6,567 nt of DNA, taken from the IMG/VR virus record IMGVR_UViG_2671180444_000011; one strand, given 5' to 3'. Position 1 is the stretch's first letter, and each line of letters begins with the position of its first letter. The position numbers were made by a program, and so were the translations under genes. This DNA is from a virus (taxonomy: Duplodnaviria > Heunggongvirae > Uroviricota > Caudoviricetes). This document shows positions 3,936 through 5,103 of this stretch, piece by piece. The notes under the pieces were generated by a model. It had not been told where the DNA came from and did no database searches. It was given only the letters and a program-made list of their open reading frames with translations.

Positions 3936-4151
3936 ATGAAATCCATGGATAAGTTAACAACGGGTGTCGCCTATGGCACCTCAGCAGGTAGTGCCGGGTA
4001 CTGGTTTTTACAGCTGCTAGATAAAGTCACGCCCTCACAGTGGGCGGCAATTGGAGTGCTGGGTAGCCTGGTATTTGGCCTGCTGACGTACCTGACAAAC
4101 CTTTATTTCAAGATTAAAGAAGATAAGCGCAAGGCTGCGAGAGGTGGATAA
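3936..4151 (+). CDS. S: Class II holin, S21-type pinholin (71 aa) with dual-start motif
   Basis: [71 protein letters not shown]: two transmembrane segments, a Met1-Lys-Ser-Met4 dual start, and a charged C-terminus. Shine-Dalgarno GAGGTG lies 5 nt upstream. Confidence 0.85.
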
Positions 4152-4648
4152 TGCCTCCATCATTACGAAAAGCTGTTGCTGCTGCTATTGGTGGCGGGGC
4201 TATTGCTATAGCATCTGTGTTAATCACTGGCCCAGGTGGTAACGATGGTCTGGAAGGTGTGAGACATAATCCTTACAAAGACATAGTTGGTGTATGGACT
4301 GTATGTTACGGGCATACAGGAAAAGACATCATTCCCGGTAAAACGTATACCGAAGCAGAGTGCAAAGCCCTCCTGAATAAAGACCTTGCCACTGTCGCCA
4401 GACAAATTAACCCGTACATCAAAGTCGATATACCGGAAACAACGCGCTGCGCTCTTTACTCGTTCGTCTACAACGTGGGTGCTGGCAATTTCAGAACATC
4501 GACGCTTCTTCGCAAAATAAACCAGGGTGATATTAAAGGCGCATGTGATCAGCTACGGCGCTGGACATACGCTGGCGGTAATCAATGGAAAGGACTGATG
4601 ACTCGCCGTGAGATTGAGCGTGAAGTCTGTTTGTGGGGGAAACAATGA
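4151..4648 (+). CDS. R: SAR endolysin (R21-type; T4-lysozyme-like muramidase, GH24) with N-terminal signal-anchor-release domain
   Basis: N-terminus [23 protein letters not shown] is a Gly/Ala-rich weak transmembrane segment; E-8aa-D-5aa-T catalytic triad in [17 protein letters not shown]; 165 aa; start overlaps the holin stop (TAATG). Confidence 0.85.
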
Positions 4649-5103
4649 GCAGAGTAACCGCGATTATCTCCGCTCTGGTTATCTGCATCATCGTCTGCCT
4701 GTCATTGGCTGTTAATCATTACCGTGATAACGCAATCGCCTACAAAGAGCAGCGCGATAACAAGGCCAGTGAACTGGAGAAGGCGAACGCCACCATCGCT
4801 GACATGCGGAAGCGTCAACGTGATGTAGCAGAACTCGACGCAAGATACATAAAGGAGCTTGCTGATGCTAACGCGACTATCGAAAGTCTCCGTGCTGATG
4901 TTTCTGCTGGGCGTAAGCGCCTGCAAGTCGCCGCCACCTGTGCAAAGTCAACGACCGGAGCCAGCGGCATGGGCGATGGAGAAAGCCCAGGACTTACAGC
5001 AGATGCTGAACTCAATTATTACCGTCTCCGAAGTGGAATCGACAAGATAACCGCGCAGGTTAACTACCTGCAGGAATACATCAGGACGCAATGCCTGAAA
5101 TAA
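4645..5103 (+). CDS. Rz: Rz i-spanin (inner-membrane spanin subunit)
   Basis: N-terminal transmembrane segment ([20 protein letters not shown]) followed by a coiled-coil-like charged region; ATG at 4645 overlaps the endolysin stop (ATGA). The ORF track's 4633 start is a GTG; ATG 4645 is preferred. Confidence 0.8.
4865..5050 (+). CDS. Rz1: Rz1 o-spanin (outer-membrane lipoprotein) embedded in the +1 frame of Rz
   Basis: Signal peptide with lipobox (LLGVSAC), Pro-rich mature region ([16 protein letters not shown]); AAGGAG Shine-Dalgarno 7 nt upstream of ATG 4865; lies entirely within Rz. Confidence 0.75.

What the first reader, a model, noticed from the sequence alone, without database searches (positions are those of the whole stretch)
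3936..5103. Apparently intact 21-type lysis cassette (pinholin, SAR endolysin, embedded Rz/Rz1) preserved amid heavy IS decay
All four reading frames are uninterrupted and keep their hallmark features: the dual-start MKSM motif in the holin, the Gly/Ala-rich SAR domain and E-D-T triad in the endolysin, the Rz transmembrane segment, and the Rz1 lipobox in the +1 frame. The start/stop overlaps (TAATG, ATGA) are retained. Intactness where neighbouring transposase genes have accumulated nonsense and frameshift lesions suggests either recent acquisition or selection for retention (for example lysis-dependent release of cell contents or vesicles).
Basis: partly seen in the sequence, partly recalled or inferred. 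Interest (0 to 1): 0.4.

Follow-up and report, generated by a model that had tools for sequence, protein, structure and literature searches.

The report
Intact but stranded prophage lysis genes
This is the ordinary, already annotated four-gene cell-lysis module (pinholin, SAR endolysin, Rz/Rz1 spanin) of a DLP12-like cryptic prophage of Shigella sonnei; it is intact, but an IS1 element separates it from its promoters, and in so young a lineage chance alone would leave it intact.

Summary
S (3936-4151), R (4151-4648), Rz (4645-5103) and Rz1 (4865-5050, +1 frame) are open. They match their Pfam families strongly and keep the MKSM dual start, the SAR domain, the E35-X8-D44-X5-T50 triad, the Rz membrane segment and the VSAC lipobox.

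The exact proteins are already in public databases as Shigella sonnei EssD, lysozyme and lysis protein. The locus is the late region of a DLP12-like prophage. S and R are 21/DLP12-type. The spanin pair is a different allele (Rz 57%, Rz1 33% identical to phage 21).

An IS1 inserted 190 bp upstream of S, with an 8-bp target duplication in complete genomes. It separates the cassette from quuD/pR' and from the K-12 promoter region.

Intactness is not evidence of selection:
- The sonnei branch carries four substitutions, all nonsynonymous. That fits neutrality (P=0.34) better than the family's usual constraint (P=0.014).
- In simulation, 74-78% of cassettes stay open after 4-5 random substitutions.
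- The neighbouring phage genes are equally intact.

The IS context to the left of the cassette joins three loci that are separate in complete genomes, through IS1 repeats and an N gap. It is probably an assembly chimera.

Verdict: known and ordinary.

The parts
3515..3745 (-). Left-end fragment of IS1 (truncated insA; terminal inverted repeat at 3723-3745) abutting the phage DNA. The rest of this IS1 copy is interrupted by an IS21-family element (2658-3514, with an N gap at 3054-3276).
   Evidence: Pfam InsA domains. The sequence is 100% identical to IS1 copies in S. sonnei genomes. Junction sequences are shown.
3732..3760 (+). Promoter-like site created by the IS1 junction: -35 TTGGCA inside the IS1 inverted repeat, a 17-nt spacer, then -10 TATGCT in phage DNA. 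This is a lead only.
   Evidence: 9 of 12 matches, but the region's total count (3) is not above the shuffle expectation (2.6). No such site exists in the uninterrupted E. coli relative. IS1 fusion promoters are documented (PMC9330008).
3746..3935 (+). The 190-bp remnant of the porin-essD intergenic leader. It holds a terminator-like hairpin at 3791-3812 (plus T tract to about 3822) and the S ribosome-binding site GAGGTGG at about 3924-3930.
   Evidence: Homology to E. coli and phage relatives begins exactly at 3746. The hairpin is (MFE -12.2 kcal/mol, z -2.2) and is conserved in K-12 and TUM9757.
3936..4151 (+). S: class II holin (pinholin) of the S21/EssD type. The 71-aa product starts at M1 and the 68-aa product at M4 (3945).
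   Evidence: Pfam PF04971, E=2e-35. 71/71 identical to the holin of phage PhiR49_1, 70/71 to K-12 EssD, 60/71 to S21. Weakly hydrophobic first segment and hydrophobic second segment.
4151..4648 (+). R: SAR endolysin (GH24 lysozyme) of the R21/RrrD type. It carries the sonnei-specific changes S29G and G100C.
   Evidence: Pfam PF00959, E=2.8e-47. PDB 4ZPU and 3HDE at about 1e-103. E-X8-D-X5-T and the SAR segment are kept. Residue 100 aligns to Asp in P22 gp19 and Cys97 in T4 lysozyme, so it is a variable site.
4645..5103 (+). Rz: inner-membrane spanin subunit, with an N-terminal membrane segment and periplasmic Cys98 and Cys150. It carries the sonnei changes W21L and T69I.
   Evidence: Pfam PF03245, E=1.9e-38. 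Hydropathy. Substitutions. L21 also occurs in two E. coli cluster members.
4865..5050 (+). Rz1: outer-membrane lipoprotein spanin subunit, embedded in the +1 frame of Rz. AAGGAG lies at 4853-4858. The lipobox is VSAC.
   Evidence: Pfam PF06085, E=2.2e-20. 61/61 identical to the Rz1 frame of phage PhiR49_1 and E. coli TUM9757. Lipobox match.
5134..5190 (+). Two terminator-like hairpins after Rz: GAGCCTCGC-GAT-GCGGGGCTC with a T run, then 5165-5182 with a T run.
   Evidence: MFE -25.1 kcal/mol for 5100-5200, z -2.3.

Best explanation
The region is the late-operon lysis module of a DLP12-like cryptic lambdoid prophage of Shigella sonnei.

If it were transcribed it would work as in phage 21 (mechanism inferred from the characterised family, not tested here):
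1. The S pinholin accumulates and triggers, depolarising the inner membrane.
2. This releases the membrane-tethered SAR endolysin R, which refolds and cleaves murein.
3. The Rz/Rz1 spanin then disrupts the outer membrane.

In S. sonnei the module can still encode its proteins but is cut off from its regulation. An IS1 inserted 190 bp upstream of S, between the cassette and both quuD/pR' and the promoter region mapped in K-12. In this window Q and pR' are absent altogether.

The open frames reflect too little time for decay in a very young clone, not purifying selection. The few changes that have accumulated look neutral.
For: Identity of the genes.

Host and prior annotation:
- The exact R, Rz and S proteins are named '[Shigella sonnei]' lysozyme, lysis protein and EssD, each on at least 1000 contigs.

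DLP12-like context:
- Complete S. sonnei genomes show ninE-ybcO-rusA-ylcG-quuD-porin(-)-IS1-S-R-Rz-KilA-N-...-Nu1-A-W-portal. This matches E. coli TUM9757 and K-12 DLP12.
- S. sonnei QuuD is 127/127 identical to the K-12 protein.

IS1 insertion:
- Homology to relatives starts at 3746.
- There is an 8-bp target duplication, AAAATTGG, in complete genomes.
- The forward primer of the K-12 promoter amplicon ('-121 to +650', PMC7918800) maps to L003 4754. This puts the transcription start about 524 nt upstream of essD and about 334 nt upstream of the IS1 point.

Relaxed constraint:
- 4 nonsynonymous and 0 synonymous derived changes, against background omega 0.02-0.27.
- P=0.34 under neutrality, 0.014 under background constraint.
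- G29, C100 and I69 appear only in Shigella members of the 90% clusters.

Chance intactness:
- Simulation gives 0.74-0.78.
- About 0.35 substitutions are expected in 1168 nt over roughly 500 years (clone age from memory) at the published S. sonnei rate of 6e-7 per site per year (PMC7373316).
- Only 14% of S. sonnei CDS are inactivated in any genome (PMC7373316).
- Flanking phage genes are equally open.
Against: - No expression data for S. sonnei were available, so silence is inferred, not shown.
- In complete S. sonnei genomes quuD and the DNA downstream of it are intact. Q-modified polymerase resists terminators, so it could in principle read through the antisense porin gene and IS1 into S.
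- The IS1 junction creates a promoter-like site.
- The K-12 homologue is transcribed and has phenotypes (PMC7918800).
- Four substitutions are few. The neutrality-versus-constraint contrast is a likelihood ratio of only about 25, and W21L recurs in E. coli.
- The transcription start position in K-12 is deduced from one primer, because the reverse primer could not be mapped.
Confidence: 0.72

Rival explanations
1. Domesticated module kept by selection. As proposed for K-12 DLP12, low-level expression of S-R-Rz/Rz1 would serve the host (peptidoglycan turnover, biofilm, vesicle or content release), and purifying selection would keep the frames open in S. sonnei.
For: The K-12 module is transcribed, controlled by Q, RpoE and Hha, and affects OMV production, biofilm and cell-wall maintenance (PMC7918800). 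The exact proteins are conserved across at least 1000 S. sonnei contigs. Hallmark residues are untouched.
Against: All four sonnei-branch changes are nonsynonymous. IS1 separates the cassette from its promoters. Conservation across a clone a few centuries old carries little information. Neighbouring phage genes are just as intact. The same research group reports that Shigella has lost the locus and that restoring it in S. flexneri mitigates virulence (PMC7918800, citing Leuzzi 2017).
Confidence: 0.1
2. Pathoadaptive silencing. The IS1 insertion upstream of S was itself selected because expression of the lysis module is anti-virulent in Shigella. The ORFs are an intact but deliberately switched-off relic.
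For: The insertion is present at the same site in all 26 long contigs read. PMC7918800 states that restoring the module in S. flexneri raises peptidoglycan release and mitigates virulence. In S. sonnei all 24 pseudogenes conserved in at least 95% of genomes are interrupted by IS (PMC7373316).
Against: Fixation in a clonal species needs no selection. IS1 also sits in the same AT-rich intergenic region, at another site, in a non-Shigella E. coli (TA8571). K-12 carries IS5 between quuD and essD and still transcribes the module. Leuzzi 2017 could not be read.
Confidence: 0.15
3. IS1-driven expression. The junction forms a fusion promoter (IS1 -35 TTGGCA, 17 nt, TATGCT) that gives Q-independent transcription of the cassette.
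For: One search finds the site, and one search shows it is absent from the uninterrupted relative. IS1 fusion promoters are documented (PMC9330008).
Against: The number of promoter-like sites in the region is no higher than in shuffles (3 against 2.6). The -10 matches only 4 of 6. A conserved terminator-like hairpin lies 31 nt downstream, before S. Constitutive holin and endolysin expression would be toxic.
Confidence: 0.06

Closest known systems
E. coli K-12 DLP12 lysis module essD-rrrD(ybcS)-rzpD/rzoD
   Same: Same prophage type and gene order (rusA-ylcG-quuD-porin-essD-rrrD-Rz). EssD is 70/71 identical and RrrD 154/165. The leader, with its terminator-like hairpin, is conserved (92% nt over 3746-4914). 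A mobile element also lies between quuD and essD: IS5 in K-12, IS1 here.
   Different: Different spanin allele from about codon 35 of Rz onward (Rz 58%, Rz1 33% identical). KilA-N/ORF11CD3 and an 85-aa gene follow Rz instead of bor. IS1 sits only 190 bp from S, downstream of the K-12 promoter region. R carries S29G and G100C.
Phage 21 lysis cassette S21 / R21 / Rz / Rz1
   Same: Pinholin with MKSM dual start, SAR endolysin with E35/D44/T50, embedded spanin architecture, and the same TAATG and ATGA overlaps. S is 85% and R 92% identical. The S+R DNA is 88.4% identical.
   Different: Rz is 57% and Rz1 33% identical. Rz1 here lacks the second cysteine of the lambda/21 Rz1. Upstream, phage 21 has pR', the Q-binding element and two tRNA genes directly before S. 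Here there is a porin gene (in complete genomes) and IS1.
Escherichia phage PhiR49_1 (PV340568) and the related E. coli prophage of strain TUM9757
   Same: These are the closest full-length relatives: 95.5% (PhiR49_1) and 99.4% (TUM9757) nt identity over 3746-5300. S and Rz1 are identical, with the same KilA-N and 85-aa genes downstream.
   Different: They have S29 and G100 in R and W21 and T69 in Rz. PhiR49_1 Rz has a 7-codon deletion. Neither has an IS1 upstream of S.
Phage lambda S-R-Rz/Rz1
   Same: Same operon logic and the same embedded two-component spanin.
   Different: Lambda uses a canonical large-hole holin (S105/S107) and a soluble transglycosylase R, not a pinholin and a SAR lysozyme (established knowledge).

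Membership tests
Pinholin / class II holin of the S21 type (Pfam PF04971) | Significant sequence match to the family | tested here: met
   PF04971, E=2e-35, 121 bits against a cut-off of 26. 85% identical to S21.
Pinholin / class II holin of the S21 type (Pfam PF04971) | Dual translational starts (M1 antiholin, M4 holin) with a Lys between them | tested here: met
   M-K-S-M at codons 1-4. Annotated in the same way in phage 21.
Pinholin / class II holin of the S21 type (Pfam PF04971) | Two membrane segments, the first weakly hydrophobic (SAR-like) and the second hydrophobic | tested here: met
   Residues 8-27: mean KD 0.38, 60% Gly/Ala/Ser/Thr. Residues 36-58: mean KD 1.5.
Pinholin / class II holin of the S21 type (Pfam PF04971) | Membrane depolarisation and lethal triggering on expression | not testable with these tools
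   Needs inducible expression. The protein is identical to the holin of isolated phage PhiR49_1.
SAR endolysin, GH24 lysozyme (R21/RrrD type) | Lysozyme catalytic motif E-X8-D-X5-T | tested here: met
   E35-GVRHNPYK-D44-IVGVW-T50. The motif definition is from PMC9239132.
SAR endolysin, GH24 lysozyme (R21/RrrD type) | N-terminal Gly/Ala-rich, weakly hydrophobic signal-anchor-release segment | tested here: met
   Residues 8-26 are identical to R21 and 63% Gly/Ala/Ser/Thr.
SAR endolysin, GH24 lysozyme (R21/RrrD type) | Close sequence relationship to solved R21 and RrrD structures | tested here: met
   4ZPU E=1.3e-103 and 3HDE E=9.4e-103, both over 165/165 residues.
SAR endolysin, GH24 lysozyme (R21/RrrD type) | Muralytic activity unaffected by the sonnei-specific S29G and G100C | tested here: inconclusive
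Activity itself was not tested.
Two-component spanin, embedded architecture (Rz/Rz1) | i-spanin with an N-terminal membrane segment and a periplasmic domain matching Pfam Phage_lysis | tested here: met
   PF03245, E=1.9e-38. Hydrophobic windows at residues 1-28.
Two-component spanin, embedded architecture (Rz/Rz1) | o-spanin wholly inside Rz in the +1 frame, with a lipobox and a non-Asp residue at +2 | tested here: met
   4865-5050 lies inside 4645-5103, offset 220 nt = +1 frame. Lipobox VSAC, +2 Lys. PF06085, E=2.2e-20.
Two-component spanin, embedded architecture (Rz/Rz1) | Same allele as phage 21 / K-12 DLP12 spanins | tested here: not met
   Rz 57-58% and Rz1 33% identity. Homology to K-12 and phage 21 DNA stops at window 4914.
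DLP12-type cryptic lambdoid prophage late region | Gene order rusA-ylcG-quuD-porin(antisense)-essD-rrrD-Rz | tested here: met
   Met in complete S. sonnei genomes that hold the identical cassette. Not met in the window itself, where IS elements replace everything upstream of 3746.
Host-domesticated (selected) prophage module | Purifying selection in the host lineage after the loss of phage function | tested here: not met
   4 nonsynonymous and 0 synonymous changes on the sonnei branch. P=0.014 under family-level constraint, 0.34 under neutrality. The numbers are small.
Host-domesticated (selected) prophage module | Expression from a host-controlled promoter and a host phenotype | not testable with these tools
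   Known for K-12 only (PMC7918800). No S. sonnei data were found.

The most novel reading that the evidence does not exclude
The IS1 insertion may not have silenced the cassette but rewired it. The fusion promoter at 3732-3760, attenuated by the conserved hairpin at 3791-3812, would give a Q-independent trickle of pinholin, endolysin and spanin. S. sonnei would use this for release of peptidoglycan, vesicles or other cell contents. The four amino-acid changes (R S29G and G100C, Rz W21L and T69I) would then be adaptive attenuations rather than neutral drift.
Probability: 0.05. Interest if true: 0.45.

Novelty: already known. Interest (0 to 1): 0.1.

Why it matters
It matters little beyond bookkeeping. 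The cassette is a textbook pinholin / SAR-endolysin / spanin module. Its exact proteins are already annotated in thousands of S. sonnei assemblies, and the idea that DLP12 lysis genes affect vesicles, peptidoglycan release and Shigella virulence is published.

Three points are useful:
1. ORF intactness in a clone a few centuries old says nothing about selection. The handful of lineage-specific changes here in fact look unconstrained.
2. The S. sonnei copy is separated from its promoters by a fixed IS1. This fits the published view that Shigella has lost or silenced this module, and it gives a clean natural allele for testing that view.
3. The IS-rich context in this window is probably an assembly join through repeats, which is a caution for reading synteny from draft Shigella assemblies.

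Tried and rejected
1. Both exact-pattern scans of genome contigs, with the IS629/IS1 junction and the IS1/phage junction, found nothing. The source assembly was not identified. The host was inferred from exact protein matches instead.
2. Leuzzi et al. 2017 (IJMM), the paper most relevant to this cassette in Shigella, is not held. Only what PMC7918800 and PMC5723341 say about it could be used.
3. The reverse primer Pdlp12Rv of PMC7918800 Table S1 does not match MG1655 within 4 mismatches. The K-12 transcription start was therefore placed from the forward primer and the stated '-121' only.
4. NCBIfam gave no specific family for S, Rz, Rz1, KilA-N or orf85, and only sub-threshold hits for R.
5. 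A look-up of the IS1::IS21 junction ORF was used to find any genome with the window's arrangement. All six contigs show the ybcN...quuD-porin side instead.
6. 'G100C hits a conserved or catalytic residue' was considered and rejected.
7. 'Rz1 lipobox or start affected by T69I' was considered and rejected. The change at 4850 lies 3 nt upstream of the AAGGAG at 4853-4858, and the Rz1 frame is identical to that of phage PhiR49_1.
8. No tRNA genes were found, and no Rfam family other than ALIL.
9. Structure prediction and the large protein searches were not run, because sequence identity to solved and characterised proteins already settles the family.
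Full report
OBSERVATION. The four reading frames are there and open: S 3936-4151 (71 aa), R 4151-4648 (165 aa), Rz 4645-5103 (152 aa) and Rz1 4865-5050 (61 aa, +1 frame inside Rz). Each matches its Pfam family far above threshold: 'Bacteriophage P21 holin S' 2e-35, Phage_lysozyme 2.8e-47, Phage_lysis 1.9e-38, Rz1 2.2e-20. R matches the solved structures of E. coli RrrD (4ZPU, 1.3e-103) and the phage 21 lysozyme (3HDE, 9.4e-103) over its full length.

They are the M-K-S-M dual start, the TAATG and ATGA overlaps, the Gly/Ala-rich SAR segment (residues 8-26, identical to R21), E35-X8-D44-X5-T50 (motif as defined in PMC9239132), the N-terminal hydrophobic segment of Rz, and a VSAC lipobox with Lys at +2 in Rz1.

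One correction is needed. Only S and R are 21-type: 85% and 92% aa identity to phage 21, and 99% and 93% to K-12 DLP12. From about codon 35 of Rz the spanin pair is a different allele (Rz 57%, Rz1 33% identity). DNA homology to K-12 and phage 21 ends at 4914.

WHAT IT IS. The exact R, Rz and S proteins are already public. They are named lysozyme, lysis protein and EssD of Shigella sonnei ('MULTISPECIES: Shigella'), each seen on at least 1000 contigs. The exact R protein is indexed in 1267 blocks of the assembly collection.

In complete genomes that carry it, the order is ninE-ybcO-rusA-ylcG-quuD-porin(antisense)-IS1-S-R-Rz-KilA-N-orf85-IS-ybcV-ylcI-Nu1-A-W-portal-protease-D. This is the late region of a DLP12-like lambdoid prophage, as in E. 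coli TUM9757 (99.4% nt identity) and K-12 DLP12. Related cassettes covering at least 80% of 3700-5300 occur in 654 of 5426 complete E. coli genomes and in 19 phage records. The nearest phage is PhiR49_1 (95.5%), whose S and Rz1 are identical to the window's.

UPSTREAM BOUNDARY. Homology to every uninterrupted relative starts at 3746. Positions 3723-3745 are the IS1 terminal repeat. In complete S. sonnei genomes a whole IS1 sits at this site, flanked by an 8-bp duplication (AAAATTGG) of the sequence that is continuous in E. coli. So a simple IS1 insertion lies 190 bp before the S start codon.

What remains of the leader contains a terminator-like hairpin (3791-3812) that is conserved in K-12 and TUM9757.

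PMC7918800 cloned the K-12 'SRRz/Rz1' regulatory region as -121 to +650. Its forward primer maps to K-12 locus L003 4754. This puts the transcription start about 524 nt upstream of essD, and about 334 nt upstream of the point equivalent to the IS1 insertion. The reverse primer could not be mapped, so this placement is approximate.

quuD is intact in complete S. sonnei genomes: 127/127 identical to K-12, and the flanking DNA is identical to TUM9757. In those genomes the cassette is separated from, but not deprived of, Q/pR'. In the window itself Q and pR' are absent.

THE IS CONTEXT IS PROBABLY NOT REAL SYNTENY. Three parts of the window map to three different places in complete S. sonnei genomes:
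- Window 1-2657 is 100% identical to a stretch next to the aerobactin genes (IS3-family debris, truncated IS629, right part of an IS1). There it is followed by a complete IS1 and nlpA.
- The IS1 interrupted by an IS21-family element lies next to lacY and ybcN in those genomes.
- The IS1 next to S is a third, uninterrupted copy.

On one contig the first and third copies are in the same orientation and 1.33 Mb apart. Joining the left flank of one to the right flank of the other would therefore delete over a megabase.

The N run at 3054-3276 replaces about 1.5 kb of IS21. None of the 27 contigs read for R (26 of them long enough to show the flank), nor the 6 read for the junction ORF, shows the window's arrangement.

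I therefore judge, at about 60% confidence, that the window left of 3515 is a scaffold or assembly path through collapsed IS1 repeats. A strain-specific rearrangement cannot be excluded.

The IS629 copy is genuinely degenerate, but the same debris, already frameshifted, exists in an E. coli island next to sat. So it is old baggage, not a local clock.

DOES INTACTNESS MEAN SELECTION? I polarised differences against six E. coli and phage relatives. The S. sonnei branch carries four changes in the 1168-nt cassette, all nonsynonymous: R S29G, R G100C, Rz W21L and Rz T69I. There are none in the leader or the spacer. In the next kilobase there is one synonymous and one nonsynonymous change.

G29, C100 and I69 occur only in Shigella members of the 90%-identity clusters. 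L21 also occurs in two E. coli members. None of the four touches a hallmark residue. Position 100 aligns to Asp in P22 gp19 and to Cys97 in T4 lysozyme.

Among relatives, omega is 0.02-0.08 for S, about 0.1 for R and about 0.25 for Rz. With those values, 4 of 4 nonsynonymous has P=0.014. Under neutrality P=0.34. The numbers are small, but they point to relaxed constraint, not retention.

A simulation shows that 4-5 random substitutions leave all four frames open 74-78% of the time. At the published S. sonnei rate of 6e-7 per site per year (PMC7373316), only about 0.35 substitutions are expected in the cassette over roughly 500 years (the clone age is from memory). Only 14% of S. sonnei CDS are inactivated in any genome. 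The neighbouring phage genes keep full lambda-like lengths. The cassette is therefore not specially preserved.

MECHANISM. Steps inferred from the characterised phage 21 system (PMC9239132; phage 21 annotation):
1. S68 accumulates, held back by S71, then triggers and depolarises the membrane.
2. The SAR endolysin leaves the bilayer, refolds and degrades murein.
3. Rz/Rz1 complexes spanning the periplasm disrupt the outer membrane.

Shown here: every sequence feature these steps need is present, and S and Rz1 are identical to those of an isolated phage.

Inferred: the module is transcriptionally stranded in S. sonnei. Its native promoters lie beyond an IS1. IS1's own promoter points away from S. 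The only nearby promoter-like site is a junction-created TTGGCA-17-TATGCT, which is absent from the uninterrupted relative. That site is no more than chance would give in the region, and a terminator-like hairpin follows it. IS1 fusion promoters do exist (PMC9330008), so this remains a low-probability rival.

COMPARISON WITH WHAT IS KNOWN. The K-12 DLP12 module is transcribed, controlled by Q, RpoE and Hha, and influences biofilm, peptidoglycan recycling and OMV production. The same authors state that Shigella has lost the locus and that restoring it in S. flexneri raises peptidoglycan release and mitigates virulence (PMC7918800; PMC5723341; the primary paper, Leuzzi 2017, was not available).

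The S. sonnei copy, coding-intact and IS1-separated, fits the published picture rather than challenging it. Whether the IS1 insertion was selected (pathoadaptive silencing) or merely fixed in a clonal lineage cannot be decided here. An independent IS1 in the same AT-rich intergenic region of a non-Shigella E. coli argues that the site is simply a good IS1 target.

VERDICT. The identification is correct apart from the spanin allele. The evolutionary inference is not supported. The finding is a known, annotated member of a well-characterised system. Interest is low.

Noticed in passing
window 1-3745 (junctions at 2116/2117, 2657/2658, 3514/3515, 3745/3746; N run 3054-3276): The left 3.7 kb joins three IS1-flanked pieces that lie at three separate loci in complete S. 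sonnei genomes: the aerobactin-island flank, the lacY-side IS1::IS21, and the IS1 next to S. The N run stands for about 1.5 kb of IS21. This is probably an assembly or scaffold path through collapsed repeats. If it is real, it is a deletion of quuD, pR' and the porin gene.
   Followed up: yes
window 1366-1482 (+): Rfam ALIL pseudoknot (119 bits), the programmed -1 frameshift signal of the IS3-family element IS629. The orfA/orfB frame change here is natural, although this IS629 copy (about 1034-2116) also has real lesions and is truncated by IS1.
   Followed up: partly
window 3732-3760 (+): An IS1 end plus flanking DNA forms a sigma-70-like hexamer pair (TTGGCA, 17 nt, TATGCT) pointing at the lysis genes. 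It is absent from the uninterrupted E. coli sequence and is followed 31 nt later by a terminator-like hairpin.
   Followed up: partly
window 5305-6056 (+): A KilA-N/ORF11CD3 gene (165 aa) and an overlapping 85-aa gene with no family match follow Rz, where K-12 DLP12 and phage 21 carry bor on the opposite strand. The same pair is found in phage PhiR49_1 and several E. coli prophages.
   Followed up: no
window about 6483-6567: The window ends in what I recognise from memory as the left end of IS2. In complete S. sonnei genomes an IS3-family transposase gene (409-424 aa when called as one fused product) follows here, between orf85 and ybcV.
   Followed up: partly
L017 5294-5991 (E. coli TA8571) and L002 8049-10018 (E. 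coli TUM9757): There are independent IS hits in the same prophage type outside Shigella. One is an IS1 between the porin gene and essD, at a different site about 500 bp before S. The other is an IS21 inside the KilA-N gene. The AT-rich porin-essD spacer looks like a recurrent IS1 target.
   Followed up: no
L012 9132-9595 (CP029794.1): In this genome the IS1 next to S carries an internal deletion: only about 253 + 211 bp align. So the element at this site is itself decaying in some strains.
   Followed up: no
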